Source: a virus (Duplodnaviria > Caudoviricetes). From it: a stretch of 64,000 nucleotides of DNA. The translations under genes and the position numbers were made by a program. Where the stretch lies: IMG/VR virus record IMGVR_UViG_3300037297_000231, positions 44 through 64,043 of that record, one strand, 5' to 3'. The notes beneath the pieces were generated by a model. The model made no database searches. It had not been told where the DNA came from and saw nothing but the letters and a program-made list of their open reading frames with translations. This document shows, one piece after another, positions 1,425-56,520 of this stretch (positions are counted from its first letter, which is position 1; each line of letters starts with the position of its first letter).

Positions 1425-1871
1425 ATGAGTGATATAATAGAAAAAGCTAAAGTAGGGAAACCATTGGCCTTTAAATCAGTTGAGGAACTTCAATTAAAAA
1501 TAGATGATTATTTTAAACACTGTGATGAAAATGATAAACCTTATACTATATGTGGATTGGCTAATCATTTAGGTGTAACACGTCAAACTTTATTGAATTA
1601 TCAAGGTAAAGAAGAATATTTTGACACAATTAAAAAAAGTAAGAATAGATGTGAACAATATGCAGAAGAATTCTTATTTAGTGGTAGACAGGTGGCAGGT
1701 GCTATATTCAATCTTAAGAATAATTATGGATGGCATGACGAACAAAAACTAAATGTAGTAACCAGGGGAATAAATATAAGTATTAGCAAAATGAATGAAT
1801 TATCTGAAGAAGACGCTGAAAAGATATATAAACAAGTGCAAGCCAATATAAATGATGAAAATAACGTATAA
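1425..1871 (+). CDS. Terminase small subunit (DNA-packaging gp3-like)
   Basis: FKSVEELQ..IDDYF, KPYTI.GLA..LG..RQTL.NY, IFNLKNNYGW.D motifs; directly precedes the large terminase. Confidence 0.85.
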   Translation: MSDIIEKAKVGKPLAFKSVEELQLKIDDYFKHCDENDKPYTICGLANHLGVTRQTLLNYQGKEEYFDTIKKSKNRCEQYAEEFLFSGRQVAGAIFNLKNNYGWHDEQKLNVVTRGINISISKMNELSEEDAEKIYKQVQANINDENNV

Positions 1872-3399
1872 AGAACGGCTTAAGACAATATCCAATCTAG
1901 AACTACTTAAACATTATAAAATGTTATATTCAATAAGATACAATGAGGTTGATTCCTGTATTGATTTTATAAATCGTTTTTGCTTTACCTATGATCCTAG
2001 ACTCCCTGATAGCAAAGTAATACCCTTTGAATTATATCCAAAACAAATAGATTTTATTAAATGGTTATTTACCCGATATCAAAACCAGGAAGACGGATGC
2101 GTTGATAAATGCCGTGATGTAGGAGCTACCTGGTGTTTTATTGCATTTTCTATTTTTTTATTATTATTTAGGAATAATGTATCTATAGCTTTTTTTACAT
2201 ATAAGGCAAGTGAATGTCATACTATTGGGAAGATGGGAACTTTATTTGAAAAAGCTGTTTTTATAATAGATAATCTTCCAAATATGTATAAACAATCAGT
2301 CGAAACTAAATTAATGCTTATAACTAATTATGAAACTAAATCTGTAATCGTAGGGGCATCAGGAGATAACCCATTAAGAGGTGATAGGCAAACAATAATC
2401 TTTAAGGACGAATCGGCTTTTTATGAGCAAGCTGAATCAATAGAAGCTGCAATGTCAAAGTCTAGTGATTGTAAAATAGATATATCAACACATGCAGGAA
2501 CAGCGACATTATTTTATCAAAAAATTGTATCCGGAGAATTACCTATATTTACGTTTGATTGGTGGGAGAATCCTAGACATACTCAGGAATGGTTTGAGTC
2601 TGAACGGAAAAAGTATTATGCAAGTGGGCTTATTCATATTTTTAGAAGAGAGATAGAAAGAAATCCTTTGGCCAGTGTTGAGAATATATTGATACCTGCG
2701 GAATGGACGCATTCAGCAAAAGTTTGTAATGTGGGTATAACAGGTAAAAGGATTGCTAGCCTTGATGTCGCAGATGAAGGGACTGATACTAACGCTTTAT
2801 GTATTATGAATGGCAATACTTTATTGCATTTAGAAGAATGGTCTAGTCCAGATCCTAATGAAACGGCACGTAAGGCTTTCTATAGAGCAATAGAATTTGA
2901 TTGTGATGAATTCCGTTATGATAATATAGGCGTGGGGACCGGGATAAAAGCCGGATTAAATGTAATTTTAGATGAATTAAGGAAAGATGAACTAAATAAC
3001 AAAAAAGCTTTAAGTATAAGGATTATTGGCTGGGCTGCGTCTGGAAAAGTTATTAGGCCTGACGATTATGATTTTGATGAGAAAAGGCCAAATAAAGACT
3101 TTTTCGAAAACGCTAAGTCTCAAGCTTATTATAAAATAAGAGACGAATTTCTTCAAACATATCATTATATGAACAAAGAACAACATGATGCTACGAAATT
3201 AATAGATTTTAGTCAAATGATTGACCATCCACTATTTAATAAATTTATGAGTGAATTATCTCAGCCTTTACAAAAATTAACAGCAAGTGGAAAGATAATT
3301 ATTGATAAAAAAGCTAAAAGTAAATCTCCAAATATAGCTGAAGCTTATATGATAGGCAGGGCTGAGGTTAATCTTAATTTATCTATCTGGGATGTTTAA
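1852..3399 (+). CDS. Terminase large subunit
   Basis: PFELYPKQ adenine-binding motif, KCRDVGAT Walker A variant, FKDE Walker B, LDVADEG.D nuclease motif, C-terminal SPN.AEA. Confidence 0.92.
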   Translation: MMKITYKERLKTISNLELLKHYKMLYSIRYNEVDSCIDFINRFCFTYDPRLPDSKVIPFELYPKQIDFIKWLFTRYQNQEDGCVDKCRDVGATWCFIAFSIFLLLFRNNVSIAFFTYKASECHTIGKMGTLFEKAVFIIDNLPNMYKQSVETKLMLITNYETKSVIVGASGDNPLRGDRQTIIFKDESAFYEQAESIEAAMSKSSDCKIDISTHAGTATLFYQKIVSGELPIFTFDWWENPRHTQEWFESERKKYYASGLIHIFRREIERNPLASVENILIPAEWTHSAKVCNVGITGKRIASLDVADEGTDTNALCIMNGNTLLHLEEWSSPDPNETARKAFYRAIEFDCDEFRYDNIGVGTGIKAGLNVILDELRKDELNNKKALSIRIIGWAASGKVIRPDDYDFDEKRPNKDFFENAKSQAYYKIRDEFLQTYHYMNKEQHDATKLIDFSQMIDHPLFNKFMSELSQPLQKLTASGKIIIDKKAKSKSPNIAEAYMIGRAEVNLNLSIWDV

Positions 3400-7416: not shown

Positions 7417-7995
7417 ATGCCAAAGGTGAAACCAGGAGAAAGTAAAGAAGATTATGTATCAAGAGCAATACCTATTTTAAAGAAAGAAGGGCTAACAGAT
7501 AAACAGGCTCAGGGTAAGGCTTTTGGTATGTTTGAAACACAGACTAAAAAAAATGAAGTGACAGTCTATAGACATAAGAAAACTATTTATAGGTATGCGG
7601 ATAATGCTAAAACAGTGAAAGGTTTTGAGAGTCCAGAACCAGGGGATCTTCCAAAAGAAAAAGCTGATTTATTGGCTGATGTTTATGCCCAATATCGTAA
7701 GAAGGGAATGAGTAAAGAAGAAGCAGTCAAAAGAGCTTGGGGTGCGGTTAATAAACAAAATCAAGAAATTGATTATAAAAAATTCTATGATACTATTATG
7801 CAGGGTGGTTTGTCTGTTGGGAAAGAGGATTTTCCTGAAGATCAATTACGTAAGGGTGTAGAAATAGAGAAAGAACACATTGACGTTAACAGTCCTTATG
7901 CTGATATGATTGCAGAGAAAATCGCAAAGGATCATTTGTCGGAAATGTCCGATTATTATGATAAGCTAGAAATGATAGAAAAAGGAGGGAAATAA
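7417..7995 (+). CDS. Mosaic head-associated protein (ChaB-like + DUF5661-like domains)
   Basis: LP....L...Y.......EEA...AWGAV (ChaB-like) and G.EIEKEH...AEKIAKDHL.E..DYY.KL (DUF5661-like). Confidence 0.55.
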   Translation: MPKVKPGESKEDYVSRAIPILKKEGLTDKQAQGKAFGMFETQTKKNEVTVYRHKKTIYRYADNAKTVKGFESPEPGDLPKEKADLLADVYAQYRKKGMSKEEAVKRAWGAVNKQNQEIDYKKFYDTIMQGGLSVGKEDFPEDQLRKGVEIEKEHIDVNSPYADMIAEKIAKDHLSEMSDYYDKLEMIEKGGK

Positions 7996-9457: not shown

Positions 9458-9566
9458 TTGACAAATAAAAATATTGCAGTATAATCTATATTAACTGCGA
9501 GAAAAAGACTTTTTGACAGGGTTAAATGGGCAGCTCGCAGTTCCCATCCTTCAGAAAGTCTTTTTT
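9458..9566 (+). ncRNA. Leader RNA element E1 (5' segment pairs with terminator loop) with its promoter
   Basis: TTGACA-16-TATAAT; AACTGCGAG 9493-9501 is complementary to CTCGCAGTT 9534-9542 inside hairpin 9502-9565, which ends in a T-run. Confidence 0.7.
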
Positions 9567-9571
9567 ATTAT

Positions 9572-9673
9572 GGGCTTTTAGTAATAATGGTCGAACGCTT
9601 TATAAAACATGAAGGGTGATTCATGATAAACCTGTTATATAAAGAGATGTGGGTTCGATTCCCACGGAGCCCG
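9572..9673 (+). ncRNA. tRNA-like RNA with expanded anticodon arm
   Basis: GGGCTTT/GGAGCCC acceptor, D-loop TGG, T-arm GTGGG-TTCGATT-CCCAC; stem CTTTATA/TATAAAG encloses about 33 nt instead of 7. Confidence 0.7.
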
Positions 9674-9691
9674 ATTTTAAGGAGAGGTAGA

Positions 9692-10108
9692 ATGGAAAGG
9701 GAGATTAAATTTAAATATTATTATAAACTCTGCCATCCCCATACAGGATGGGGAGATATTCATATTGCAATAATAACATTAGAAGATTTAGAAAAAGGTA
9801 AATATAAAGATATTATAGGAAAATTAGAAGAATCTTTTGTGGTTGAAATTATAGGTAAATGTCAATATACAGGATTAAAAGATGAAAATAAAAAAGAAGT
9901 ATTTGCAGGAGATATAATTGAATTTATAACTGAGGATGAAGGATATGAAGAAAATATAAAAAGATTTAATGGATGGTTTATAGATTATGATATTCATGAA
10001 AAATGCTTAGTATTGAGAGATAGAAAAGAAAATGATTTAATTCCTTTATCTCATTTTGACTATCATGCAAATTTTAATGTCATAGGCAATATATCTGAGA
10101 GTTTATAA
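9692..10108 (+). CDS. YopX family protein
   Basis: MEREIKF..., QYTGLKD.N.KEVF.GDII, VIGNI; real start at 9692 after a GGAGAGG RBS. Confidence 0.8.
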   Translation: MEREIKFKYYYKLCHPHTGWGDIHIAIITLEDLEKGKYKDIIGKLEESFVVEIIGKCQYTGLKDENKKEVFAGDIIEFITEDEGYEENIKRFNGWFIDYDIHEKCLVLRDRKENDLIPLSHFDYHANFNVIGNISESL

Positions 10109-11166
10109 TTAAGGAGAAATAAAATGGATCATGAACAAATAAGTGAAGAAGAAATAAGAGATAAATTAGAAGTAAATGAAAATTGTATAACTAAACTTTT
10201 AAATGAATTAATAATATGTTTTGAAAAAAATAAAGAATTAAGAGAAGAGCTTATTGAAATATTAGATAACAAGGAGAAATAAAATGAGTAAATGGTACAC
10301 TGCACAAAAAGATTTTATTGAACTTAATGATGATAATATAGATATATATGTTTGTAATGACTATGATGGAAGCATATATATACAAGTGCCAATGAAAATA
10401 TTAAAAGAAGTTTTGCAAGAAAGAAATAAAATAACAAAAGAACTTTTAGAGGAGTTAAAAAAATGAAATCACAAAAACAAATATTTGACGAGCTTAATAA
10501 AGACTGGGAAGATGCGAAAGAAAAAAATAGACAGCTTAAATCTATTATGCTATTTAATTCACCCTTTGAAGAAATATTAAAGGAACATCGGAAAGTGTTA
10601 TCTGTTTATTTGGCAGAGATACATAAGGATATCACAGCTTTAAGAAAAAGAATTGAGGGCATTAATAATGAATAATGTTAAAGGCAATGAATATCAATGT
10701 CAGATGTGCGAAGTTATATTCAAAAAAGATCGATTAACTAAAAATAATTATTTACCATCAACAGGTAATAAAATAATAATATGCGATGGTTGTCATGATA
10801 TGATTTCAGGTGGGCTATGAATAAAAAGGGGAAAAAGGATGAAAGAAGACAAAGAACAAACAAGTGAAGAGTTTGCAGATAAATTATTAGAAGAAAATTA
10901 TTTTGATTCAAAAGCATGGGCAAATTATTTGATGCCTTCTCAAAATGAAATAGGCATATCAAAGATGAATCCGATTGTACAAAAAGACATATCAGAATAT
11001 ATTCAAAAAACATATATAAAGAATGACAAGGGCTTTATTAGGATACCAAATTATAATAAAATACCTTGCGATGATAAACAGGCAACGATTGATTTTGCTA
11101 TTGAAAATATAAACCGTAGTCAATTATGTTTATTTGTAAATTTAAAACAAAAGGTAGTACAATAAG

Positions 11167-12186
11167 ATGCAAATATATAAAATTACTAATTTAATTAATA
11201 ATAAAATATATATAGGTCAAGATGCTTATGATAATAAAAATTATTATGGTTCAGGAAGAATAATTAAACGTGCAATTAAGAAATATGGAAAACATAATTT
11301 TATAAAAGACATATTAAATCAATGTAATTCTAAACAAGAGATGAATGAATTAGAAATCTATTGGATCAAATATTTTAAAGATTGTGGGTATATACTTTAT
11401 AATTTAACAAAAGGCGGTGGAGGAAGTTTAGGATATAGACATTTAAATGAATCAAAACAAAAGATGAAAGGAAGAAAAGCATGGAACAAAGGTTTAACGA
11501 AAGATATAGATAATAGGGTAAAAAAAATAAGTTTATCTATGAAAGGTAAAATTTTTTCTGATAGCCATAAGAAAAAAATAAGCATGTCAAAAAAAGGTAG
11601 AAATTATGAAGAAAAATATGGAATTTATAGGGCTATAGAAATTAAAAATAAAATACGATTAAAGACAAAATTAACTTTTAATCAAAAAACAATAAAAGAA
11701 AAAAGAAGTAAAGATAAAAAAGGTAAAAGTTATGAAGAAATATATAAAATAGAAAATATAGAAAGAATGAAAAATATGGCAAGAAAAAGAATGTTAGGAG
11801 AAAATAATCCTGCTAAGAGACCTGAAGTAAGAGAAAAAATGAGTAAAATGCGTAAAGGCATACCAAATAAATATAAAGGTACAAATAAAGAAAATAATGA
11901 AATTTATAGGAGATTAAGTGATTCTAAGAAAGGTAAAAAATTTACAGAGGGACATAAAAGAAATTTAAGTATTGCTAAAAAAGGATTATATACTGAAGAT
12001 AAAAGTCATTCGGCAAAGACATTTATATTCTATTCACCTTGTGGAATAAGAAATGTTGTAAAAGGGATATATTATAAATTTTGTGAAGAAAACAATTTAT
12101 GTGGAAAAACGATAAGAGAACATTTAAATAAAAACAATCATAATTATAAAGGATGGGCTATTTATAGATATGAAAATAATAGATAA
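11167..12186 (+). CDS. Free-standing GIY-YIG homing endonuclease with NUMOD3 repeats
   Basis: IYKITNLINNKIYIGQ...YYGSG, E..WI, YNLTKGG, repeated HKKKIS.SKKG motifs. Confidence 0.88.
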   Translation: MQIYKITNLINNKIYIGQDAYDNKNYYGSGRIIKRAIKKYGKHNFIKDILNQCNSKQEMNELEIYWIKYFKDCGYILYNLTKGGGGSLGYRHLNESKQKMKGRKAWNKGLTKDIDNRVKKISLSMKGKIFSDSHKKKISMSKKGRNYEEKYGIYRAIEIKNKIRLKTKLTFNQKTIKEKRSKDKKGKSYEEIYKIENIERMKNMARKRMLGENNPAKRPEVREKMSKMRKGIPNKYKGTNKENNEIYRRLSDSKKGKKFTEGHKRNLSIAKKGLYTEDKSHSAKTFIFYSPCGIRNVVKGIYYKFCEENNLCGKTIREHLNKNNHNYKGWAIYRYENNR

Positions 12187-12877
12187 TATTTCTCTTATAA
12201 TTTTAAGTTGCAAACGATTTTCACTTTTTAAAAGGACGATAGAATCTCTTCAAAAAAACTGCCTCGACTTAGATTTAATTAGCCAAATAATCTTAGTTGA
12301 CGATAATAGCGAATTACATGATTTAATCTTAATGCAGGATTTAGCAAAAAAACTCGGTAAGCCTTTATTGTTGGTAAGCAAGCATCAAAATAAAGGACAC
12401 GCAATTTCAATGAATATTGCATGGGATCTGGTTAAGACTGAATATTGCCTATTATTAGAGGACGATTGGGAGTGCGTTAAGTCTGATAATTTCATTAAAA
12501 CTGCGTTTCAGATATTTAATAAGCATGATAATGTTGTCCAGGTCCAATACCACCGTAAAGCTGATATAACAGCAATAGGGCAAAAGACTTTAAAATTAGG
12601 CAATAAAAAATATATAAAATATGACTATAATGTCAAATCAGTTGATAGTCTAGGCAGACCAGCATTTCCAGGGTTCACTTTGAATCCTAGCTTAATCAAT
12701 GTCAAAAAGCTAAAAGAAAATAATTTGCGCTTTAGAGAGGATATATTCGGCTTTGAGTTTAATTATGCTTGTCAGGTTGCAGGAAAAGGACTTAAGATTG
12801 CTTATTTTACCGATAATTATTTTCAGCATATAGGCAAGAATAATTCGGCGTATAAGTTGAATGAAACTCAGAGGTAA
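12170..12877 (+). CDS. Glycosyltransferase family 2-like
   Basis: ILVDDNS, N.AW, LLEDDW (DxD), HIG motifs. Confidence 0.8.
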   Translation: MKIIDNISLIILSCKRFSLFKRTIESLQKNCLDLDLISQIILVDDNSELHDLILMQDLAKKLGKPLLLVSKHQNKGHAISMNIAWDLVKTEYCLLLEDDWECVKSDNFIKTAFQIFNKHDNVVQVQYHRKADITAIGQKTLKLGNKKYIKYDYNVKSVDSLGRPAFPGFTLNPSLINVKKLKENNLRFREDIFGFEFNYACQVAGKGLKIAYFTDNYFQHIGKNNSAYKLNETQR

Positions 12878-13020
12878 TATGTGTTTGCATGTTTGGAGTA
12901 AAAAGATTAACGAGATCAAATATTTTTCGAAAGATATTATAGGTATAGAAGAATCTAAGATATGTAAAAATTGTGGACGGCTTAAATATATTAAGTTTAA
13001 ATCAATACGGAGAAAAAAGA

Positions 13021-13656
13021 ATGTTCAATTTTAATCAATTATTTCCAGTTGTATATTTGATCAATCTCCCTGAACATGCTGAACGCCTTGAACATGCAAA
13101 AAAACAACTTGCTAAAATTGGGATATCCGATTATATTATATTTGAAGGCATTAAAGTAAATAACGGTCAAACATTACAAGATCGTGAGGCTGGATGTAAA
13201 TTATCACATTTGGCTATTATTGAACAATGCAAAGAGAACGGCATTGATAGAGTATGTATATTTGAAGATGATATAAATATAAAAGATACTTTTTTAGAAA
13301 AATTGGGAATGGTAAAAGATTTTATATTGAATGAAGATTGGCATTTATTTTATTTTGGTGGCAACTTAAATGTTAATTCAGGGCATCATTACGATATTTT
13401 TAACAAAGATATAATGCGTGTTTATAGATGCTATACTACACATGCTTATTGTGTTAATTCTAGCATTTATAATCAGATATTGCAGTTTAAGGAGGTTAAT
13501 ACTCAATATGATATATTATTGAGCTTTTTAATCCAGGAACAATATAAAAAGAGTTTTTGCATGAATCCTCGTCAAATAACACAGAGGACAGGCTTTTCTT
13601 ATATAATGCAAAAGAGCCTTGATTATTCTATAGTCTTAGAAGATAGAAAAATATAA
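13021..13656 (+). CDS. Glycosyltransferase family 25
   Basis: YLINL....ER, GC.LSH, IFEDD, THAY motifs; start at 13021 after GGAG. Confidence 0.85.
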   Translation: MFNFNQLFPVVYLINLPEHAERLEHAKKQLAKIGISDYIIFEGIKVNNGQTLQDREAGCKLSHLAIIEQCKENGIDRVCIFEDDINIKDTFLEKLGMVKDFILNEDWHLFYFGGNLNVNSGHHYDIFNKDIMRVYRCYTTHAYCVNSSIYNQILQFKEVNTQYDILLSFLIQEQYKKSFCMNPRQITQRTGFSYIMQKSLDYSIVLEDRKI

Positions 13657-13660
13657 TTTT

Positions 13661-13710
13661 GTCGACTTACTTTATATTAAATTATATTGTGTTAAATTAA
13701 ATTATTTTTT
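13661..13710 (+). repeat. 5-nt periodic tract A0 (NTT-NN units)
   Basis: gtc-ga ctt-ac ttt-at att-aa att-at att-gt gtt-aa att-aa att-at, then a T-run. Confidence 0.8.
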
Positions 13711-13723
13711 TAGGAGAAAAAAA

Positions 13724-14311
13724 ATGAAACAAGAGCAAAAAGAAGAAAAAATCGTGATTCCAACAATAAATATGGAATCATACATCATTACTATTGAAGG
13801 CGAATCTCCATTAATCACAGGTCGATTTTCTTCAGACTTATCAAACAATCCAAAAGATAATTCACCTGCCCAACAGATAAAAAATTCTATTCATTATTTA
13901 TCTGATGGGAGTTATGGGTATCCAGCAAGAGCAATACAAAAAGCAATCATAAATGCTTGTCGTATAAAACAGAAAGATGTAAAGACTTATAAAATGACAG
14001 AATTACGTGGTGTTTTTTCTGTTATTGCCGAAGATGAAACTGGATTATTGAAGCTAGATTGTAAAGATCATACTACTTTTGAAAGGATAGTATATAATAA
14101 AAATAATGCAATAAAAAGCCATTATGCTAAGTATGATAAATGGAAATTAACTTTTGAATTGATATTTAATCCATCCGTTAAATCATTGAAAGATTTTTTA
14201 TATTTATTGACTTTAGCAGGGCAATTTGTAGGGCTTGGAGTTTTAAGGCCTCAAGCGCAGGATTCAGGGGAATATGGAAGATTTAAAATAATTAAAGTTG
14301 AACATAAATAA
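13724..14311 (+). CDS. Stand-alone RAMP / Cas7(Csm3)-like RNA-binding protein
   Basis: N-terminal ITIEGESPL strand, YPARAIQKAI helix (equivalent of IPGSSLKGA), C-terminal Gly-rich loop GLGVLRP..SGEYGRF. Confidence 0.75.
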   Translation: MKQEQKEEKIVIPTINMESYIITIEGESPLITGRFSSDLSNNPKDNSPAQQIKNSIHYLSDGSYGYPARAIQKAIINACRIKQKDVKTYKMTELRGVFSVIAEDETGLLKLDCKDHTTFERIVYNKNNAIKSHYAKYDKWKLTFELIFNPSVKSLKDFLYLLTLAGQFVGLGVLRPQAQDSGEYGRFKIIKVEHK

Positions 14312-14321
14312 TTTGTTTTTT

Positions 14322-14381
14322 GTTCGTTTGATTTGGATTAATATGGATTACTTTTGATTGATTTACTTTAAATTAAATTTT
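14322..14381 (+). repeat. 5-nt periodic tract A1
   Basis: gtt-cg ttt-ga ttt-gg att-aa tat-gg att-ac ttt-tg att-ga ttt-ac ttt-aa att-aa att-tt. Confidence 0.8.
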
Positions 14382-14423
14382 TTATTGATATTTGAAAAAA
14401 ATGAGTTAAAATATAATATATAG

Positions 14424-14473
14424 GTTTTATTATATTACCTTTGATTAGGTTTCGTTTAATTGCATTAAATTAT
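14424..14473 (+). repeat. 5-nt periodic tract A2 (just downstream of a promoter-like sequence at 14392-14419)
   Basis: gtt-tt att-at att-ac ctt-tg att-ag gtt-tc gtt-ta att-gc att-aa att-at: 10/10 units have TT in register. Confidence 0.85.
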
Positions 14474-14538
14474 TTATAGGGGAGAATTGAAATAGGTAAT
14501 TATGGATTGTAATTATTCTTTGTATTGTATTTTTTTAT

Positions 14539-14613
14539 GTTTGATTAAGGTTAATTACGATTTAATCATTTAAATTAAATTGCCTTCGTTTTAGTTTTGT
14601 TGCATTAAATTTA
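14539..14613 (+). repeat. 5-nt periodic tract A3
   Basis: gtt-tg att-aa ggt-ta att-ac gat-tt aat-ca ttt-aa att-aa att-gc ctt-cg ttt-ta gtt-tt gtt-gc att-aa att-ta: third base is T in all 15 units. Confidence 0.8.
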
Positions 14614-14629
14614 TTTTTAAGGATTATTT

Positions 14630-15136
14630 ATGGAAAAAAAGATTATTTTTTATAGCAAGAAAAGTTTTTTGCCTAATACTTCATTACAAAAGATAGGGGA
14701 AGAAATATATAATCTGAAAGATAGAAGTATATCTAATATCTATGATACTGTTGCCAAAAATGAGAAATCAGAGCTTCATAAACATTTGACATGGGATAAT
14801 AAAATTGCGGGTAAAAACTGGCGTAAATATGAAATTAAAAAAATAGTTTCGACAATTGTATATAAAATTATAGAAATAGATAAAGACAAAAAAGAAGATA
14901 TACTTATTGAAGATCAAAGGGCTTTTGACACTATAGGAAAAGACGACAAGAAAAAAGAAGTTATATTCGTTGTAGAAGATATCAAAAAGAAAGACAAAAG
15001 AACTATATTATTTGAAAAACTTCAGGAGGAATTCGAAAGTATTCAAAATAGAATTAAAGAGTATAATAGAATCGTTGATTTTATTCTGGATTTAAATAAT
15101 AAATGGAATGATTTAAATAATAAATTAAATAAATAA
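14630..15136 (+). CDS. Uncharacterised phage protein partnered with the RAMP gene
   Basis: SELHKHLTWDNKIAGKNWR resembles the phage motif (S/P)LHxxFxWDDxxAxxxYR; embedded between periodic tracts. Confidence 0.55.
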   Translation: MEKKIIFYSKKSFLPNTSLQKIGEEIYNLKDRSISNIYDTVAKNEKSELHKHLTWDNKIAGKNWRKYEIKKIVSTIVYKIIEIDKDKKEDILIEDQRAFDTIGKDDKKKEVIFVVEDIKKKDKRTILFEKLQEEFESIQNRIKEYNRIVDFILDLNNKWNDLNNKLNK

Positions 15137-15189
15137 TCGTTTTTATTACATTAAGATCGTTTAAATTGAATTTTATTAAATTAAATTTT
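15135..15189 (+). repeat. 5-nt periodic tract A4
   Basis: aat-cg ttt-tt att-ac att-aa gat-cg ttt-aa att-ga att-tt att-aa att-aa att-tt. Confidence 0.8.
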
Positions 15190-15203
15190 TTTGGAGTTGT
15201 ATA

Positions 15204-16019
15204 ATGAATAAAGCAAATATAATAATTTTTAGTTTTAATAGGCCTTGTCAATTAGAATTGTTATTAAGATCCATGAAAATGCATTGGAATGATTTTGATA
15301 ACCAGGAGATTAAGGTTATTTATACTTATTCTAATGATAGTTTTGAAGCTGGATATAATAAGCTTAAAAATGAATGTAAGGGTAATATTGAGTTTGTCAA
15401 ACAAGTGACATTTAGACAGAATGTTATTAATTGCATAGATACAAGTAAAGAACTTGTTATATTTGGGACTGATGATGATGTTTTTATTCGTGATTTTGAT
15501 TTGCAATGTAAAGAGGTTGATTTCTTTAAGCAACGCCCTGAGATAATTACTTTGTCATTAAGGCTCGGTAAGAATATTTCTTATTGTTATACACAGAATA
15601 GATTTATATCCCGGCCGCTTTTAATCAAGGGTGCGGATTATAATTTGTGGAATTGGACTGAGGGAGAAGAAGGGGACTGGACTTATCCATTCAGTTTAGA
15701 TTTTAATTTATATGAGACGGACTTTATTTTGCCTTATATTAAGAAGTTTGAGTTTAGATCACCGAATACACTTGAGGGCTTTTTTGCTCGTATAATGCCT
15801 TATGCTAGATATTTAATGATGGGTTTTGATGAACCTAAAATTGTAAATTTGCCTATAAATCGGGTGCAAATGGATAATAAGAATAGGCACGGAAGAATAC
15901 CTGCGGAGTTTTTAAATAATAAGTATTTAGATGGCTATGTTATTGATTATAGTAAACTTGAAATATTCAACGGCAACTCTTGCCATATTGAGAGTAAAGT
16001 TGAGTTTATTGAGGGATAA
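15204..16019 (+). CDS. Glycosyltransferase-like (GT-A fold)
   Basis: IIFSFNRP.QL..LL.S, TDDD motif, YP.SLD, PNTLE. Confidence 0.7.
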   Translation: MNKANIIIFSFNRPCQLELLLRSMKMHWNDFDNQEIKVIYTYSNDSFEAGYNKLKNECKGNIEFVKQVTFRQNVINCIDTSKELVIFGTDDDVFIRDFDLQCKEVDFFKQRPEIITLSLRLGKNISYCYTQNRFISRPLLIKGADYNLWNWTEGEEGDWTYPFSLDFNLYETDFILPYIKKFEFRSPNTLEGFFARIMPYARYLMMGFDEPKIVNLPINRVQMDNKNRHGRIPAEFLNNKYLDGYVIDYSKLEIFNGNSCHIESKVEFIEG

Positions 16020-16356
16020 ACCATTGTTAATGGTTAAAAATATATTTTTTTTAGGAGATTAAATATGTATGAGTTAGAAAAAACTGATGAGAAAGAACGA
16101 ATAGAATATGAAATAGGGCGTGAGGTGCGTTTAATTGGTGAGCATTTAGAAAAATTGGATCATGCTATTAATTCTTTAAGAAAACGATGTGCTGATATTA
16201 TTGAAGAATATCCAACTGAAAAATTAGACTCCAAATTATCAGAAGGATGTGGAACTGTTTTAGGTGACAAATTAAAGAATTTTAACGGATCGTTAGAGTC
16301 TTGTATTAATAATTTGAATAACTTAAAAGAAAATATAAGGCTATAGGCAATTTAAG

Positions 16357-16962
16357 ATGTGCAATAAAGATACTAAAAAATGCGATATACAGAAAGGATT
16401 CCCATTAAATGAATGCTGCAAAAACAATCTTATGAAACTATTATCTGTTATAGATATCATGTTTAAAAAGCATAATATATTATATTGGATTGATTATGGT
16501 ACGTTGCTTGGGAGTGTAAGGCAAGGGCAAATAATACCCTATGACGATGATTGCGATATTGGTATACTAAGGCAGGATTTAGATAAACTATTATGCTTAA
16601 GCGATGAATTTCGTTTGATGGGATTCCATCTAGTAAGTTGGTTCTATCCTAATTTTTTAAGATTAGATTATAGCAGAATAAATGAACTTCATGTGGATAT
16701 CTTTGCATGGGATGTTCAAATAATGCCATTTAAAGAGATCTGGCAAGAGGATAGATGGCAATATAATACAGCTTGTTTATACCGGAAACAATATATTCAG
16801 GGCAAAGATGAAAATAAAGGAAAGCATTTTCCAGTTGAATATTTATTCCCTCTGAATAAATCTAAAATAGGCAATTTGTCTTTACCGTGTCCGCACAAAC
16901 CAGATCGATTTTGTGGGTTTAGATATGGGCATGATTGGAGAATTGAGAAAAAGGAAAATTAA
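16357..16962 (+). CDS. licD: LicD family phosphotransferase
   Basis: YWIDYGTLLGSVR...IIPYDDDCDIG, VDIF, YG.DW motifs. Confidence 0.85.
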   Translation: MCNKDTKKCDIQKGFPLNECCKNNLMKLLSVIDIMFKKHNILYWIDYGTLLGSVRQGQIIPYDDDCDIGILRQDLDKLLCLSDEFRLMGFHLVSWFYPNFLRLDYSRINELHVDIFAWDVQIMPFKEIWQEDRWQYNTACLYRKQYIQGKDENKGKHFPVEYLFPLNKSKIGNLSLPCPHKPDRFCGFRYGHDWRIEKKEN

Positions 16963-16964
16963 TA

Positions 16965-17357
16965 ATGAATAAGGAAAAAATTAATATAGGGTTTACAGTT
17001 GGCATTTGGGATTGTTTTCATGAAGCACATATTATTTTTTTAAAGAAATGCCATAAATATTGTGATTATTTAATAGTTGGTATCATGACAGATTATTGGT
17101 GTAAAGTCCAAAAAGGTAAAACTAGACCTGAAGATGGGTTACAAACCAGACATGCTAATTTACAAAATAGTAACCTTTGTGATAAGATCGTCATACTTGA
17201 TACTTTAGATATGACAGAATATTTGAAAATTGCTGATATATGGATTAAGGGAGTTGGGCAAAATAAAATGAAGCCAGAATTTTTTAAAAATACTGTTTTC
17301 ATACCTAGAACACCTGATATATCAACGACAAAAATTTTAGAGGAGAAAAAATGGTAA
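16965..17357 (+). CDS. Cytidylyltransferase (TagD/RfaE-like HxGH family)
   Basis: G.WD.FHEAH, LIVG, PRTPDISTT motifs. Confidence 0.8.
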   Translation: MNKEKINIGFTVGIWDCFHEAHIIFLKKCHKYCDYLIVGIMTDYWCKVQKGKTRPEDGLQTRHANLQNSNLCDKIVILDTLDMTEYLKIADIWIKGVGQNKMKPEFFKNTVFIPRTPDISTTKILEEKKW

Positions 17358-17724
17358 AATTTTTAAAAAAAATCATTAAAAAATTATTTTTTAAATATTT
17401 TGATATAAAAATAAATAACATTGAGGTTTATACTTTTTGTAAAGATGAAATTTTATCTAATAATTTTAATGAAAAATTTAATTCAAAATTCTGCACTATA
17501 TATAATATAGCATATTTTGTATTGGTTCAATATTGGTTTGATTCAATAACTATTGTTGTCAATAGGGATACATCTACTATTTTTTTAATACTAGAAGATA
17601 TAAATTTTGAATTAGAAAAAGAAATTATTGGATATTTAAAAGATAAATTACCGGCTAATGTATTAATTAAAATATCTGAAAATATAGTAGAAAATATTAT
17701 TGGCTATGAAATAAAAGAAAAATA

Positions 17725-18372
17725 ATGGATAATAGACAAAAATATATTAATATAAACCCAAAATATTTTGAATTATTATCATTAAGCTATTTTGATAAAT
17801 ATATGCATGATGCTTTAATATATAGGGATTTCATGGGATGTGAAGGCTTTAAAGAGGATTATTTGGCTTTACATGGAATAATTAGGGAAGTAAATCCTCA
17901 GTCATTTTGTGAGATTGGAACTCACTTAGGAGAGGGGACTAGAATTATTTGTAATGCTATGCAAGGTAAACAAGTATATTCACTTGATTTACCGGTCAGA
18001 TATGATGAAACTAAAGATGTCTATTTAAATTGGAATAGTGAAAAACCAGAAGGAAAAGTAGGTGAACGATGCGAATTTACTTATACTCAATTATTTGGAA
18101 ACTCAAAATATTTTGACTTTTCACCATATTACCCAATTGATGCCTGGTATATTGACGGTAGGCATAATTATGAGTTTTGTTATGCGGATTCTATAAACGC
18201 CTTAAAATCTAACCCAAAAGTCATTATATGGCATGATACATTGATGGATGGTGTTCAAAAAGCTATTTATCAGATAATAGAAGAAAACAAGGCTTTATAT
18301 GAGGCTTATTATATAAGAGGTACGAGAGTATCATTTATTTTAAGAAAGGAGAAAAATAATGCCAATAAATAG
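17725..18372 (+). CDS. Class I SAM-dependent methyltransferase (Methyltransf_24-like)
   Basis: EIGT..G.G, YIDG.H.Y...D, IIWHD motifs. Confidence 0.8.
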   Translation: MDNRQKYININPKYFELLSLSYFDKYMHDALIYRDFMGCEGFKEDYLALHGIIREVNPQSFCEIGTHLGEGTRIICNAMQGKQVYSLDLPVRYDETKDVYLNWNSEKPEGKVGERCEFTYTQLFGNSKYFDFSPYYPIDAWYIDGRHNYEFCYADSINALKSNPKVIIWHDTLMDGVQKAIYQIIEENKALYEAYYIRGTRVSFILRKEKNNANK

Positions 18373-18898
18373 TGAAATATTAAGTAAGTATAAAAATGAT
18401 GTGTTTGTGGAGACTGGAACACATATTGGGCGTGGTATAGATGCAGCTTTGAAAGCTGGTTTCAAGGAAATCCACTCTGTTGAATTATCAGCAAAACATT
18501 ATATTTTTTGTATGAAAAAGTACAAAGATAATAAAAATGTATTTCTTTATCATGGAGATTCAGGAAAATTGCTTAGTGTTATTTTAGGAAAAGTAAAACG
18601 TAGAAATAAAACTGTGTGGTTGGATTCACATTTTTCAGGAGGCGATACAGCTTGCGGAGAGAAATATTCACCGCTTATGGAAGAACTAAGTGTAATTAAA
18701 TATTTCTATGGTAAAAGGGATGTAATTTTAATTGATGATATTCGGGATTATAAGGTTAAATCAGAGCATTATGATTTTGACCTGGAAGATATTAAGGATA
18801 AACTTTTAGAGATTAATGCTGATTTTACTTTTAGCTATGAGGACTCATATCAGGGTGATACTTTTATGTTTCCAAAAGATATTTTAGTGGCTAAATAG
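18359..18898 (+). CDS. SAM-dependent methyltransferase-like protein
   Basis: FVETGT..G.G, SVEL, GDS, WLDSH, ILIDD.R motifs. Confidence 0.75.
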   Translation: MPINSEILSKYKNDVFVETGTHIGRGIDAALKAGFKEIHSVELSAKHYIFCMKKYKDNKNVFLYHGDSGKLLSVILGKVKRRNKTVWLDSHFSGGDTACGEKYSPLMEELSVIKYFYGKRDVILIDDIRDYKVKSEHYDFDLEDIKDKLLEINADFTFSYEDSYQGDTFMFPKDILVAK

Positions 18899-19286
18899 GA
18901 GTAAGCATGATTGATATTAAGAAAAAACCAAATAAAATATATATTGAAATATATAATTATAAAACCAAAAAAAAGATAGTCACATTAGCTTTTTCGAAAG
19001 AATCATTAAAATTTGCTAATCATATACATAAATATTTTAAACATATAATAAAAACTTCAATAGAATCAGGATGGATAAATAGATCAGATTGGACAAACGC
19101 AGAAATAAAATTAAGATTTCCTGGAATAAATAAAGTTGAAATTATATTGCCTTCGGTAATACATAATGTAAATATCAATATTAAACCCTCAAAATTGAGC
19201 ATACAAGCAAATAAAATATTTAGAAGAATATTTAAAAATAATATTAATTATGTAAAAGATATAAAAGTTATTCCAAAATATAAAAA

Positions 19287-20003
19287 ATGATACCAATACT
19301 TTATGCTATAAACTTTAAAATAGATTCTCTTCCTAATGCAATGAGACGCTTCAATTGCTCATTAAATTCTATTTTATTGCAAGCTGATAAGATATTTATT
19401 TTAAATGCATCGAAAGAAGATATTGATATTATTGATCATGATAAGATTGTTTATATTCATAAGCCTTATAATAAGTACTTTAATAAATCACTTTTAATGA
19501 ACTATATGGTGAAGCATTTTTTAAAGGATTATGACTATTTTTGTTTTTCAGATATAGACCTCGTTTATCCAAAGGATTATATTAAACGAATTACTTCACA
19601 TATACAGAATAAACCAGTTCGGGTGATTCCTCGCAATATAGCAATGCCTATGGAATATTACTCAGGTAATTATGATGATTTGTTAATCATTGCTGATAAG
19701 TTTAAACAGCATCCAACAGGTGAAGCTCATGGAATAGGTTTATTTCATACTCAGTCTGTTATTGATATAAAAGGATGGAATGAATATTATTTGGGGTATG
19801 CTGCGGAAGATAAAAGTATAAATTTGAGATTGGAAAAATATGGCAATAAGATTATATTTGATCGTTCAATAAATCATATTCATTTGTGGCATTATCCAAT
19901 AAATCGGGAATATCATGCACAAAATAAGTTTTTATGGAATCAAGAGCAAGAATTTATCAGGAAAGGGAAACTTATATTTAATGATAAGTGGGGTGAATAT
20001 TAA
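19287..20003 (+). CDS. Glycosyltransferase (GT2 / galactosyltransferase C-terminal-like)
   Basis: FNKS..MN, DID, GWNE.Y.GY..ED, HLWH motifs. Confidence 0.8.
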   Translation: MIPILYAINFKIDSLPNAMRRFNCSLNSILLQADKIFILNASKEDIDIIDHDKIVYIHKPYNKYFNKSLLMNYMVKHFLKDYDYFCFSDIDLVYPKDYIKRITSHIQNKPVRVIPRNIAMPMEYYSGNYDDLLIIADKFKQHPTGEAHGIGLFHTQSVIDIKGWNEYYLGYAAEDKSINLRLEKYGNKIIFDRSINHIHLWHYPINREYHAQNKFLWNQEQEFIRKGKLIFNDKWGEY

Positions 20004-48347: not shown

Positions 48348-48377
48348 TTGACAAATATTCAACGGTTTTAGTATGAT
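48348..48377 (+). promoter_or_regulatory. Promoter of the tRNA cluster
   Basis: TTGACA-18-TATGAT directly before tRNA-Met. Confidence 0.65.
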
Positions 48378-48383
48378 GTCATT

Positions 48384-48456
48384 TGTAGGTGAGTGAAACG
48401 GTTTACACGCTAGTCTCATAAGCTAGAAATATTGGGTTCGACTCCCATACCCGCAA
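48384..48456 (+). tRNA. tRNA-Met (CAT)
   Basis: Anticodon arm CTAGT-CTCATAA-GCTAG, T-arm TGGG-TTCGACT-CCCA; one acceptor mismatch; no encoded CCA. Confidence 0.8.
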
Positions 48457-48461: not shown

Positions 48462-48542
48462 GATCGGCAGGATAAGGCTTTTATTAATTTGTGTGTAAGT
48501 TTTCTGCCGATCACTTATACCTTTTTGATAAAAGCCTTTTTT
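48462..48542 (+). ncRNA. Leader RNA element E2 between tRNAs
   Basis: GATCGGCAG 48462-48470 is complementary to CTGCCGATC 48504-48512 in the loop of hairpin 48474-48538, followed by a T-run. Confidence 0.7.
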
Positions 48543-49142: not shown

Positions 49143-49256
49143 CAAATTGAAAAAATATTATAATATGTTTGGTATCGGACAGAATGAAAAGCCTCTTATT
49201 AGGGGGTGTTAGGTCTCTGTCCGAGCCTTTCATCTCTCTAATAAGGGGCTTTTTTT
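49139..49256 (+). ncRNA. Leader RNA element E3 with promoter, upstream of the replication initiator
   Basis: TTGACA promoter; TCGGACAGA 49175-49183 is complementary to TCTGTCCGA 49216-49224 in the loop of hairpin 49187-49253, followed by a T-run. Confidence 0.72.
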
Positions 49257-56404: not shown

Positions 56405-56520
56405 TTGAAAAATTTGAAAATTGAGTTATACTTATTAATAGATCGAAGATAAGGAAGGCTTTAGTAAAAGAGTTTAAACCGGCTTACTTCGATCGGCCGG
56501 CTCTTTTATTAAAGCCTTTC
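56405..56520 (+). ncRNA. Leader RNA element E4 with promoter
   Basis: TTGAAA-16-TATACT; GATCGAAG 56441-56448 is complementary to CTTCGATC 56487-56494 in the loop of hairpin 56454-56519. Confidence 0.65.

What the first reader, a model, noticed from the sequence alone, without database searches (positions are those of the whole stretch)
9493..9566. Four sequence-divergent copies of one RNA fold: 5' segment pairs with the loop of a long terminator-like hairpin
Seen: E1 (9493-9566), E2 (48462-48542), E3 (49175-49256) and E4 (56441-56520) share the order A - short linker - B - C - A' - C' - B' - U-run. A/A' pairs are AACTGCGAG/CTCGCAGTT, GATCGGCAG/CTGCCGATC, TCGGACAGA/TCTGTCCGA and GATCGAAG/CTTCGATC. 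B/B' is a 13-22 bp stem and C/C' a 4-8 bp inner stem abutting A'. The sequences differ yet every pairing is kept, which amounts to covariation inside one genome. Three copies start right after a sigma70 promoter. Inference: a family of pseudoknotted attenuators/switches or stable small RNAs that gate read-through, possibly relieved by a phage factor. I cannot assign it to a known family.
Basis: partly seen in the sequence, partly recalled or inferred. Interest (0 to 1): 0.72.

Follow-up and report, generated by a model that had tools for sequence, protein, structure and literature searches.

The report
Phage leader RNAs: 5' end pairs terminator loop
Four short leader RNAs in an uncultured 64-kb phage each have a 5' end that matches the loop of their own terminator hairpin, and the same kind of pairing sits in front of a replication gene in other phages, so it looks like a new, still unexplained RNA control element.

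Summary
E1-E4 each have an 8-9 nt 5' segment (A), a 2-5 nt linker and a 22-27 bp hairpin whose 10-12 nt apical loop carries the perfect complement (A'). My scan finds exactly these four in the 64-kb phage genome and none in 355 kb of low-GC control DNA.

New evidence: the gene after E3 has homologues in IMG/VR phages. Seventeen of 76 such loci carry a terminator-like hairpin just upstream of that gene whose loop complements an upstream segment. The sequences differ in every lineage. One complete phage has two paralogous copies with compensating changes. So the pairing appears to be under selection.

No Rfam family matches.

In the window phage the linker is too short for A:A' and the closed hairpin to coexist in one molecule.

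My best reading (about 0.4): a leader attenuator in which A:A' forms first during transcription and weakens the terminator, letting promoter-less downstream genes be transcribed.

Rivals: stable small RNAs that dock in trans as dimers, a pro-termination folding guide, and 5'-end protection or processing signals.

No transcript data could be obtained.

The parts
9458..9485 (+). E1 promoter, TTGACA-16-TATAAT (12 of 12 consensus matches)
9493..9501 (+). E1 segment A (AACTGCGAG), at about +1 of the transcript
9502..9566 (+). E1 long hairpin (22 pairs with A' unpaired) ending in UUUUUU. The inner stem is ATGGG/CCCAT.
9534..9542 (+). E1 segment A' (CTCGCAGTT) in the 12-nt apical loop, with a 3-nt spacer on its 5' side and 0 nt on its 3' side
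48462..48470 (+). E2 segment A (GATCGGCAG), 5 nt after the 3' end of the tRNA at 48384-48456
48475..48542 (+). E2 long hairpin (23 pairs) plus U-run. tRNA-Leu starts 2 nt later.
48504..48512 (+). E2 segment A' (CTGCCGATC) in the apical loop
49139..49166 (+). E3 promoter, TTGACA-16-TAATAT (10 of 12). It overlaps the stop codon of the upstream ORF 48711-49142.
49175..49183 (+). E3 segment A (TCGGACAGA)
49186..49256 (+). E3 long hairpin (27 pairs, -35 to -39 kcal/mol) plus UUUUUUU, 20 nt before the GTG of the 289-aa gene
49216..49224 (+). E3 segment A' (TCTGTCCGA) in the 10-nt apical loop
56405..56432 (+). E4 promoter, TTGAAA-16-TATACT (10 of 12)
56441..56448 (+). E4 segment A (GATCGAAG)
56453..56520 (+). 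E4 long hairpin (26 pairs). It has no proper U-run. It lies 47 nt before the ATG at 56568.
56487..56494 (+). E4 segment A' (CTTCGATC) in the 10-nt apical loop

Best explanation
E1-E4 are four copies of a leader-RNA module. Each transcript starts with an 8-9 nt segment that pairs with the apical loop of a strong terminator-type hairpin. The hairpin lies directly in front of the first gene of a transcription unit.

Shown:
- The pairing is kept by compensating changes among the four copies, in two paralogous copies in another complete phage, and in the leaders of the homologous replication-module gene in at least 12 further phage lineages.

Inferred for this phage:
- The linker is only 2-5 nt, so docking of the 5' end on the loop and closure of the lower hairpin stem exclude each other within one molecule.
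- A:A' forms as soon as A' leaves the polymerase and holds the 5' arm of the terminator in a closed loop.
- A:A' must then be pulled apart before the base of the hairpin next to the U-run can close.
- The expected result is a leaky or conditional terminator. This would let the tRNA, replication and other downstream genes, which have no promoter of their own, be transcribed.

Speculative:
- Whatever occupies A or A', including the terminated RNA itself acting in trans, would restore termination.
For: 1. The pairing is real. See the observation check.

2. Cross-phage covariation.
- A descriptor for the relatives' hairpin (lower stem, NAGUA / GAAA internal loop, 3-5 bp upper stem, 6-11 nt loop, T-rich tail) contains no term for A/A'.
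- It found 18 hits in the 76 loci (1,015,965 bases) that encode a homologue of the gene after E3.
- Fourteen of the 18 are strong. All 14 lie on the gene's strand just upstream of the gene, and all 14 have a 6-8 nt perfect complement of the loop 44-78 nt upstream.
- The 4 weak hits have complements of 0-5 nt.
- Control sets gave 2 weak hits in 825,192 bases and 6 weak hits in 749,791 bases.

3. Self against cross comparison.
- Each of 16 loops against its own upstream 120 nt gives complements of 6-9 nt (mean 7.4).
- Against the 240 foreign upstream regions the mean is 3.85. A complement of 7 nt or more occurs in 2 of 240, and of 6 nt or more in 11 of 240.

4. A complete 35.8-kb phage (G002) has two paralogous leaders.
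- They share a near-identical promoter, and A starts at about +1 in both.
- The compensated pairs are TGCAACAA..GAGACTTAATA with TATTAAGTCTC..TTGTTGCA, and TGCCGTGAA..ATAATTC with GAATTAT..TTTACGGCA.
- The downstream proteins are 76% identical over 106 aa.

5. Context in the window.
- There is no room for a promoter between hairpin and gene. The gaps are 2 nt (E2 to tRNA-Leu), 20 nt (E3), 47 nt (E4) and 57 nt (E1 to the ATG).
- The DnaB-type helicase gene lies behind E3.
- The other clear terminator-like hairpins that I looked at (25092, 41412, 59245) show no A/A' in the printed sequences and did not appear in the A/A' scan. In the sequences inspected I saw no promoter just upstream of them.

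6. Folding.
- The growing chain has A:A' in its minimum-energy fold from the moment A' is complete.
- A:A' leaves the minimum-energy fold only when 2-11 nt of the modelled transcript remain to be made. It is lost at 67 of 75, 80 of 85, 73 of 84 and 73 of 82 nt.
- The A:A' duplexes are worth -13.0, -15.1, -14.2 and -9.6 kcal/mol.

7. RNA structure that shares no nucleotides with a terminator can suppress termination. This is reported for 'tug-of-war' riboswitches in bioRxiv 10.64898/2026.06.17.733018. I read only its abstract and outline.
Against: - No transcript data exist for this phage, so start sites, 3' ends and termination efficiency are all unmeasured.
- In the relatives the linker is 24-78 nt. 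Docking and the full hairpin can coexist there, so steric antitermination cannot be the shared mechanism. The common function may therefore be something else.
- The 19-25 kcal/mol refolding barriers come from a model without pseudoknots and are overestimates. A stepwise exchange of A:A' pairs for lower-stem pairs could be fast.
- With usual pseudoknot penalties, the full hairpin with a free A tail is probably the most stable monomer. This is my estimate and was not computed.
- E4 lacks a U-run.
- 59 of the 76 homologue loci show no such leader by my scans.
- A generic scan for 8-bp pairings abutting the 3' strand gave 24 raw hits, against 29 for the wrong-side control. The signal is confined to these leaders and is not a general property of hairpins.
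Confidence: 0.4

Rival explanations
1. The functional products are the short terminated or processed RNAs of about 75-90 nt. They would be four stable small RNAs with strong promoters. The short linker forbids docking in cis, so the 5' tail of one molecule docks on the loop of another. This would give antiparallel, domain-swapped homodimers or chains. Each species keeps its own A/A' code, which avoids cross-pairing. What the dimers would do (for example timing or replication control) is unknown.
For: - The layout is that of a small-RNA gene: promoter, about 75 nt, then a terminator. E1 has a 12 of 12 consensus promoter.
- E2 lies between tRNA genes, where tRNA processing would release it.
- A' has 0 nt on its 3' side and 1-3 nt on its 5' side in 4 of 4 copies. 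This is the geometry expected for a loop that stacks a helix with an incoming strand, so A:A' probably coexists with the inner stem.
- In relatives with long linkers the docked fold can form in one molecule. The docked fold may therefore be the conserved state, and in the window phage only a dimer can reach it without opening the stem.
- Two hairpins of equal length laid antiparallel close such a dimer for any stem length (inference).
- A and A' have no other partner in the phage genome.
Against: - There is no evidence that these RNAs accumulate or dimerise.
- Downstream genes still need read-through of the hairpins.
- ViennaRNA cannot score such a complex, so no energy was computed.
- No function is proposed for the dimer.
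Confidence: 0.22
2. The pairing helps the terminator instead of hindering it. A:A' would clamp the nascent 5' arm and pre-organise the loop, so that the hairpin folds correctly whatever RNA lies upstream. Alternatively the docked fold would bind a protein that enforces termination.
For: - In G002 the loop is 31-32 nt, and 16-19 of its nucleotides pair with the 5' end. This would shorten an otherwise floppy loop.
- In the relatives the docking module sits on top of a normal GC-rich lower stem followed by a U-run. It also carries a conserved AGUA/GAA-type internal loop, a motif that often binds proteins (the motif name is recalled).
Against: - The hairpins in the window phage are already very stable (-28 to -39 kcal/mol) and have small loops, so they need no help.
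- Stronger termination would silence the replication genes behind E3.
- In the window phage docking cannot coexist with the closed base of the hairpin.
Confidence: 0.12
3. The fold is a stability or processing signal. In one version the 5'-terminal nucleotides are hidden in a helix and so protected from 5'-end-dependent RNases. In another version a quasi-continuous helix of 30-39 bp (stem plus A:A') serves as an RNase III site that matures the leader.
For: - A starts at about +1 in E1, E3, E4 and in both G002 copies.
- The stacked length is similar in the three architectures. By my count it is about 30-36 bp in the window phage, 37-39 bp in G002 and about 28-34 bp in the kissing type.
- 5' stabilisers and RNase III sites are known from phages SP82, T7 and lambda (recalled).
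Against: - A simple 5' hairpin would protect the end equally well.
- In the kissing-type relatives A lies in an internal hairpin loop, not at the 5' end.
- The long stems are RNase III-sized without A:A'.
Confidence: 0.12
4. The complementarity is a by-product at the DNA level, for example template-switch correction of overlapping quasi-palindromes, or chance. In this case it has no RNA function.
For: A...A' and B...B' are overlapping inverted repeats.
Against: - Chance is excluded.
- The constant geometry points to RNA. A' abuts the 3' strand, A lies at the transcript start or in a hairpin loop, the copies are always on the coding strand, and they always lie before a gene.
Confidence: 0.03

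Closest known systems
Long-range pseudoknot in rep mRNA leaders of IncI-alpha / IncB / IncL/M plasmids (ColIb-P9 repZ, pMU720 repA).
   Same: The loop of an upstream hairpin pairs with a distant segment next to the start of a replication gene. The leader is short and regulatory. The pairing sequences differ between replicons.
   Different: - In the plasmids the distal partner lies next to the ribosome-binding site and activates translation. Here it is the apical loop of a terminator-type hairpin.
- The plasmid systems need a leader peptide and an antisense RNA from the opposite strand. Here leader ORFs are inconsistent (an ORF covers A in 7 of 10 leaders), and no antisense promoter was established.
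- In the window phage the module also precedes tRNA genes and non-replication genes.
Countertranscript-driven transcription attenuation of rep mRNAs (pT181, pIP501, pAM-beta-1). Recalled.
   Same: A promoter-proximal intrinsic terminator stands before a replication gene. A 5' segment decides whether it forms, and loops act as specificity determinants.
   Different: - In these plasmids the 5' segment pairs with the 5' arm of the terminator stem, so the two structures share nucleotides. Here A' lies in the loop and shares none.
- The plasmid regulator is an antisense RNA from the other strand.
Phage P4 CI RNA and P1/P7 C4 RNA (Rfam RF01695). The mechanism is recalled.
   Same: Complementary segments lie on the same strand of one leader transcript, and one of them is shown in the loop of a stable hairpin RNA. 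The pairing controls premature termination.
   Different: - No Rfam match at the gathering threshold, nor at E up to 5, for any of E1-E4.
- In P4 and P1 the partners lie hundreds of nucleotides apart, and the RNA is cut out by RNase P and acts in trans.
- Here the partners are 32-38 nt apart and there are four different specificities.
Promoter-proximal terminated transcripts of lambdoid late operons (PR'-tR' 6S RNA with Q antitermination). Recalled.
   Same: A strong promoter is followed at once by a strong terminator, and all downstream genes depend on read-through.
   Different: Q systems rely on a protein loaded at the promoter and have no pairing between the 5' end and the terminator loop. 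No Q-like gene or binding site was identified here, and I did not search for one.
'Tug-of-war' transcriptional riboswitches (bioRxiv 10.64898/2026.06.17.733018; abstract and outline read).
   Same: Termination is suppressed by an RNA structure that shares no nucleotides with the terminator.
   Different: In those riboswitches a ligand-stabilised aptamer sits immediately upstream of the terminator and competes for the exit channel. Here the competing helix uses the terminator's own loop, and no ligand pocket is conserved.
Loop-loop (kissing) tertiary contacts, such as L2-L3 of purine riboswitches or the intermolecular loops of phi29 pRNA. Recalled.
   Same: In the relatives, two hairpin loops of 6-9 nt pair completely. 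In phi29-like pRNAs the loop sequences also vary while the complementarity is kept.
   Different: There is no three-way junction and no conserved ligand core. The phi29-type pRNA is a single packaging RNA of small podoviruses, whereas here the element is a gene leader and is present in 2-4 copies.

Membership tests
Any Rfam 15 family (including C4 antisense RNA, the riboswitch classes and the small ribozymes) | Score at or above the family's gathering threshold with its covariance model | tested here: not met
   - In the window only 3 tRNA matches reach the gathering threshold.
- At E up to 5 around E1-E4 there are only weak chance-level matches, for example PyrR at 18.8 bits against a threshold of 54, and Phe_leader at 20.4 against 55.
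- There are 0 matches in 7 relatives' loci, 94,246 bases.
Intrinsic (Rho-independent) terminator | Stable GC-containing hairpin followed directly by a U-tract | tested here: met
   - E1, E2 and E3 have hairpins of -22 to -39 kcal/mol followed by 6, 6 and 7 U.
- This is not met for E4, which has UUU only.
- Function as a terminator was not measured.
Classical terminator/antiterminator attenuator | The antiterminator helix shares nucleotides with the 5' arm of the terminator stem | tested here: not met
   A' lies wholly in the apical loop. The flanks of A and A' are not complementary, so the helix cannot spread into the stem.
Classical terminator/antiterminator attenuator | Mutually exclusive folds, with the early fold formed first during transcription | tested here: met
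   - In a nested folding model A:A' is the minimum-energy fold of the growing chain until 2-11 nt of the modelled transcript remain.
- The exclusion in three dimensions is inferred from the linker length.
Ligand-binding pseudoknot riboswitches (preQ1, SAM-II, fluoride, guanidine-III) | Conserved ligand-contacting nucleotides | tested here: not met
   The four copies share no conserved core, and there are no Rfam matches.
Replication-gene leader with loop docking (the family defined here from IMG/VR relatives) | Lies directly upstream of a homologue of the 289-aa gene, on its strand | tested here: met
   E3 ends 20 nt before the GTG at 49276. The relatives' hairpins lie directly upstream of, and close to, the gene start. 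E1, E2 and E4 precede other genes.
Replication-gene leader with loop docking (the family defined here from IMG/VR relatives) | Terminator-type hairpin whose apical loop complements an upstream segment of the same leader | tested here: met
Replication-gene leader with loop docking (the family defined here from IMG/VR relatives) | NAGUA / GAAA(C) internal loop under a 3-5 bp upper stem, and A presented in the loop of a small 5' hairpin | tested here: not met
   The descriptor finds 0 hits in the window. In E1-E4 A is a free 5' tail and the internal loops differ. The window copies are therefore a variant and not typical members.
IncI-alpha/IncB-type rep leader | Leader peptide translationally coupled to rep, plus an antisense RNA | tested here: inconclusive
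   - An ORF covers A in 7 of 10 relatives' leaders.
- Its stop lies 7-9 nt before the hairpin in 4 of 10.
- An overlapping ATGA stop/start with the rep gene occurs for leader ORFs of 2 of 10 (L153, L192); these ORFs do not cover A.
- Antisense promoters were not tested.

The most novel reading that the evidence does not exclude
The four elements would be orthogonal, self-addressed RNA timers.
- Early in infection each nascent leader docks its own 5' end on its own terminator loop and reads through.
- The fraction that terminates accumulates as a stable RNA. Because the short linker forbids self-docking, its A and A' stay free.
- This RNA then captures the A or A' of later nascent leaders in trans, or forms domain-swapped dimers, and switches that transcription unit off.
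- One phage would thus run four independent sense-RNA feedback loops, each with a private 8-9 nt code and without any antisense gene.
Probability: 0.12. Interest if true: 0.85.

Novelty: new variant of a known kind. Interest (0 to 1): 0.62.

Why it matters
If the pairing controls read-through, this would be a form of attenuation in which the terminator's own loop is the control point, not its stem. It would need no shared nucleotides, no ligand pocket and no antisense gene.

The code is only 8-9 nt long and freely re-writable. One phage already carries four different versions, which would make it a natural set of orthogonal RNA parts.

The related leaders give a testable handle on how uncultured phages regulate a replication-module gene that has no known protein family.

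The short-linker and long-linker versions form a natural experiment on whether docking helps or hinders termination.

Tried and rejected
Ideas rejected
- Insulator idea. An upstream 'anti-A' would sequester A only in transcripts arriving from upstream. Only E1 has such a segment (UUGCAGU in the promoter spacer, -9.2 kcal/mol). E2-E4 have none (-6.0, -5.3 and -2.7), and A:A' still wins once A' is made.
- Trans targets in the phage. A and A' have no other exact copy in the genome.
- Fold-back hinge. An asymmetric internal loop that could bend the stem back is present in E1 and E4. It is absent in E2 (UUU/UUU) and E3 (UU/UU).

Searches for relatives that gave little
- blastn and tblastn against isolated phages gave only tRNA or YopX fragments and distant proteins. 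The best are portal 38% and sheath 34% to Bdellovibrio phage phi1422.
- IMG/VR scans with DnaB, the MuF-like protein and the large ORF 1852-3399 (taken to be the large terminase) gave 1, 0 and 0 useful loci. The DnaB alignment gave 9 loci at 25-27% identity.
- The single metagenome scan was swamped by bacterial DnaB at 29-40% identity and missed the 54%-identical relatives seen.
- 59 loci from these scans (the 49 portal relatives among them, 749,791 bases in all) hold no element except one doubtful hit.
- Homologues of the gene after E4 were found in 4 loci. Two of them (L217, L218) have a hairpin with only a 5-6 bp complement, which is too weak to count.
- A short-linker candidate at L178:10157 lies antisense inside a 531-aa ORF and is taken as chance.

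Scripts that failed or gave noise
- timed out.
- Scanner version 2 was too noisy and was dropped.
- The first scan without a stem-quality filter passed 59 irregular hairpins, nearly all in GC-rich loci.

Other
- The leader-peptide idea remains inconclusive.
- MAFFT did not align the A loops. No covariance model was built. A descriptor search and a self/cross matrix were used instead. RNAalifold on alignment A4 recovered 9 pairs of the second hairpin, 8 of them with compensating changes.
- Four literature searches listed no paper describing pairing between a 5' end and a terminator loop. Only listings were seen, apart from the one preprint outline. Subscription journals are not covered, and supplements were not consulted.
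Full report
**What the window is**

The window is practically a whole virus record of 64,043 bases with 29% G+C. It encodes portal, head-morphogenesis and sheath-like proteins, a DnaB-type helicase, a RuvC-like resolvase, YopX, a homing endonuclease and several tRNAs. Nearly all genes lie on the + strand. It uses sigma-70-type promoters and AAGGAG-type ribosome-binding sites.

No isolated phage is close. The best matches are portal 38% and sheath 34% to Bdellovibrio phage phi1422. Public runs that hold the DNA are wetland and marine-sediment metagenomes. Only one run holds most of the sampled words, and it may be the source of the assembly.

**Checking the observation**

Each has:
- a segment A of 8-9 nt;
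- a linker of 2-5 nt;
- a long, nearly perfect hairpin of 22, 23, 27 and 26 pairs when A' is kept unpaired;
- the perfect complement A' inside an apical loop of 10-12 nt.

The hairpins are far more stable than shuffled sequence: -28.1 to -39.1 kcal/mol, z -4.65 to -6.30, and 0 of 200 shuffles as stable for each.

A consistent detail is that A' touches the 3' strand of the inner stem (0 nt in 4 of 4 copies), while 3, 3, 1 and 2 nt separate it from the 5' strand.

Chance is excluded:
- Per loop, a complement of the observed length occurs in about 3-4 of 10,000 random 25-nt genome windows, and part of that count is the true site.
- The A and A' words have no other exact copy in the genome.
- A scan for the whole architecture on both strands gave 8 raw candidates, of which exactly E1-E4 passed.
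- The scan with a stem-quality filter passed nothing in 354,594 bases of low-GC control loci. It passed 6 irregular GC-rich hairpins among the remaining, higher-GC loci of the 985,118-base set.

Three copies follow a promoter so closely that A is at about +1 to +3 of the transcript. A of E2 starts 5 nt after a tRNA. E4 lacks a true U-run.

**Surroundings**

Each element stands directly before genes on the same strand, with no room for another promoter.
- E1 lies 5 nt before a tRNA-like sequence (Rfam tRNA, 29.2 bits against a threshold of 29, with a 36-nt insert) and 57 nt before the YopX ORF. That ORF opens a 12-kb island of accessory genes.
- E2 lies 2 nt before two tRNA-Leu genes.
- E3 lies 20 nt before a 289-aa gene of no known family, which is followed by the DnaB-type helicase gene.
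- E4 lies 47 nt before a 108-aa ORF.

The promoters of E1, E3 and E4 sit between the stop codon of the upstream gene and the hairpin. Their transcripts therefore meet the hairpin after about 10 nt.

The other clear terminator-like hairpins that I looked at (25092, 41412, 59245) show no A/A' in the printed sequences and were not picked up by the A/A' scan. In the sequences inspected I saw no promoter just upstream of them.

**Related sequences**

Most routes to relatives failed; see Tried and rejected.

The productive one was the 289-aa protein behind E3. It has homologues at 27-55% identity over its N-terminal part in 76 IMG/VR loci totalling 1,015,965 bases.

Main group:
- In the leader of that gene many loci carry a hairpin with a GC-rich lower stem, an internal loop NAGUA / GAAA(C), a 3-5 bp upper stem, a 6-10 nt loop and a U-run, ending shortly before the start codon.
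- A descriptor built only from these features, with no term for A/A', found 18 hits in the 76 loci.
- Fourteen hits are strong. All 14 lie on the gene's strand just upstream of the gene, and every one has a 6-8 nt perfect complement of its loop 44-78 nt upstream.
- The 4 weak hits have complements of 0-5 nt.
- Control sets gave 2 and 6 weak hits in 825,192 and 749,791 bases, and the window gave none.
- L190 is a further member that the tail filter missed.
- The loop words differ between lineages: CTGCAC, CCCATCT, CCCCGTTT, CCAGGCT, TCGCCGTATT, CCGTTTC, AGTGCAGA, CTCGCTT, CCGCTA, TGTAGCTT and CCACATT.
- In these leaders the upstream partner sits in the loop of a small hairpin, for example CAUG-loop-CAUG. 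The contact is therefore a kissing of two loops.

Two further architectures:
- L175 (record G001) has an 8-bp hairpin presenting AGUUGCGGU. After 29 nt there is a terminator hairpin whose 9-nt loop is ACCGCAACU, followed by a U-run and AAGGAG.
- G002 is a complete 35.8-kb record. It has two paralogous leaders with nearly the same TTTACA-17-TATAAT promoter and A at about +1.
- In the G002 leaders 16-19 nt of the 5' end pair with the 3' part of a 31-32 nt loop. A' again abuts the 3' strand (0-1 nt), and the two copies differ by compensating changes.
- The genes downstream of the two G002 leaders are 76% identical over 106 aa.

A matrix of each loop against its own and all other upstream regions summarises this. 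Self complements are 6-9 nt (mean 7.4, n = 16). Cross complements average 3.85, with 7 nt or more in 2 of 240.

RNAalifold on a MAFFT alignment of ten leaders recovers 9 pairs of the second hairpin, 8 of them with compensating changes.

Results against a broad claim:
- 59 of the 76 loci show no such leader by my scans. Several have leader hairpins with no complement, for example L199/L200, L163, L167, L207 and L194.
- A generic scan for 8-bp pairings abutting the 3' strand gave 24 raw hits, against 29 for the wrong-side control.
- 59 other IMG/VR loci (the 49 portal relatives among them, 749,791 bases in all) hold none except one doubtful hit.
- No other phage examined has the short-linker form of the window.

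**Geometry (inference from A-form RNA dimensions)**

With 0 nt on the 3' side and 1-3 nt on the 5' side, A' is placed so that an A:A' helix can stack on the inner stem, as in kissing loops. This argues that A:A' and the upper stem coexist.

A's 3' end would then lie on top of a stack of about 30-36 bp (85-100 A). The linker to the base of the hairpin is only 2-5 nt (30 A at most). In the window phage one molecule therefore cannot have both A:A' and a closed lower stem.

In the relatives the linker is 24-78 nt, so both can coexist.

Two ways out remain for the window phage:
- The lower stem, which is the part next to the U-run, stays open while A is docked.
- A docks on the loop of a second molecule. 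Two equal hairpins laid antiparallel would close such a dimer whatever the stem length.

**Folding calculations**

In a nested model, the growing chain pairs A with A' as soon as A' is complete. It keeps this as the minimum-energy fold until 67 of 75, 80 of 85, 73 of 84 and 73 of 82 nt are made.

The A:A' duplexes are worth -13.0, -15.1, -14.2 and -9.6 kcal/mol.

Refolding barriers of 19-25 kcal/mol are upper limits, because the model cannot use pseudoknotted intermediates.

**Most likely mechanism**

I commit to a leader attenuator at about 0.4. In the window phage the docking helix forms first and holds the 5' arm. It competes mechanically with closure of the terminator base, so the terminator is leaky or conditional. 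The promoter-less genes behind it, among them the helicase gene, are then transcribed.
- Shown: the pairing exists and is kept by compensating changes, it lies in leaders, and downstream genes have no promoter of their own.
- Inferred: the steric exclusion, the order of folding and the direction of the effect.

The main weakness is that the long-linker relatives do not have this exclusion, so the shared function may be another one. The rivals are given in the field for them, with their odds.

**Comparison with what is known**

No Rfam family matches the window elements or seven relatives' loci. Four full-text searches listed no description of pairing between a 5' end and a terminator loop. Only listings were seen.

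The closest systems, mostly recalled, are:
- the long-range pseudoknot of IncI-alpha/IncB rep leaders;
- countertranscript attenuation in pT181-type plasmids;
- the same-strand complementarities of P4 CI and P1 C4 RNA;
- promoter-proximal terminators under Q control in lambdoid phages;
- 'tug-of-war' riboswitches, of which I read the abstract and outline.

The present element works somewhat like these, but it fails the defining features that I could test. The helix shares no nucleotides with the terminator stem, no covariance model matches, no ligand core is conserved, and leader peptides are inconsistent.

**Verdict**

This is a real, apparently selected RNA feature. It is a variant of leader or attenuator RNAs that has not been described in the sources searched. 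It is present in four private versions in one phage and in related forms before a replication-module gene in other uncultured phages. Its mechanism remains to be measured.

Noticed in passing
window 9572-9673: A tRNA-like sequence lies 5 nt after E1. It scores 29.2 bits against the Rfam tRNA threshold of 29 and has a perfect T-arm and a 7-bp acceptor stem. It carries a 36-nt insert in the anticodon arm that holds a ribosome-binding site and the ATG (9623) of the YopX ORF. ARAGORN does not call it. It may be a degenerate or interrupted tRNA, or an attachment-site remnant.
   Followed up: partly
window 51958-52112: A stretch of about 155 nt begins like the acceptor and D arms of a long-arm tRNA (GGCAGAGTGGCGGAATAGGTAGACGC) and ends with the complementary CTCTGCC. 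Its fold is -47.6 kcal/mol but z is only -1.95. There is no Rfam match at E up to 5. It could be a tRNA with a large insert.
   Followed up: partly
window 48384-48456: A third tRNA of the cluster is found by Rfam (42.4 bits) but not by ARAGORN. A promoter, TTGACA-18-TATGAT, lies at 48348-48377.
   Followed up: no
window 9474-9480: Inside the spacer of the E1 promoter, TTGCAGT is complementary to E1's segment A (-9.2 kcal/mol). Only E1 has such an upstream partner.
   Followed up: yes
window 9623-21492: A 12-kb block of accessory genes (YopX, homing endonuclease, glucosyltransferase-like and unknowns) lies between the head-morphogenesis gene and the remaining structural genes. E1 opens this block.
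   Followed up: partly
L192 7774-7830: Two direct repeats of about 24 nt (GGTAAAAATGTAGTATATTTGTAT), which look like iterons, lie just upstream of the leader of the replication-module gene.
   Followed up: no
L177 233-289, L183 4599-4655, L185 7854-7922, L209 4678-4752: Short ORFs of 18-24 codons cover segment A and stop 7-9 nt before the terminator hairpin. In L153 and L192 other leader ORFs, which do not cover A, end in an ATGA overlap with the gene start. The pattern is inconsistent: an ORF covers A in 7 of 10 leaders.
   Followed up: partly
L223 923-1849 and L143 3076-3891 (both in record G002): One phage carries two genes with unrelated N-terminal halves and C-terminal halves that are 76% identical over 106 aa. 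Each lies behind its own copy of the leader.
   Followed up: partly
L171 about 1840-2270 (- strand): There is a long tandem array of a unit of about 15 nt (GAGATTTGCTCTAGA-like). It produced false hits in my scans.
   Followed up: no
L169 about 7850-7900 and L155 about 7830-7870: A perfect 18-bp palindrome (TTCCAATTATACAAAAC ... GTTTTGTATAATTGGAA) lies upstream of the homologous gene. It looks more like a protein-binding site or an origin than like the docking leader.
   Followed up: no
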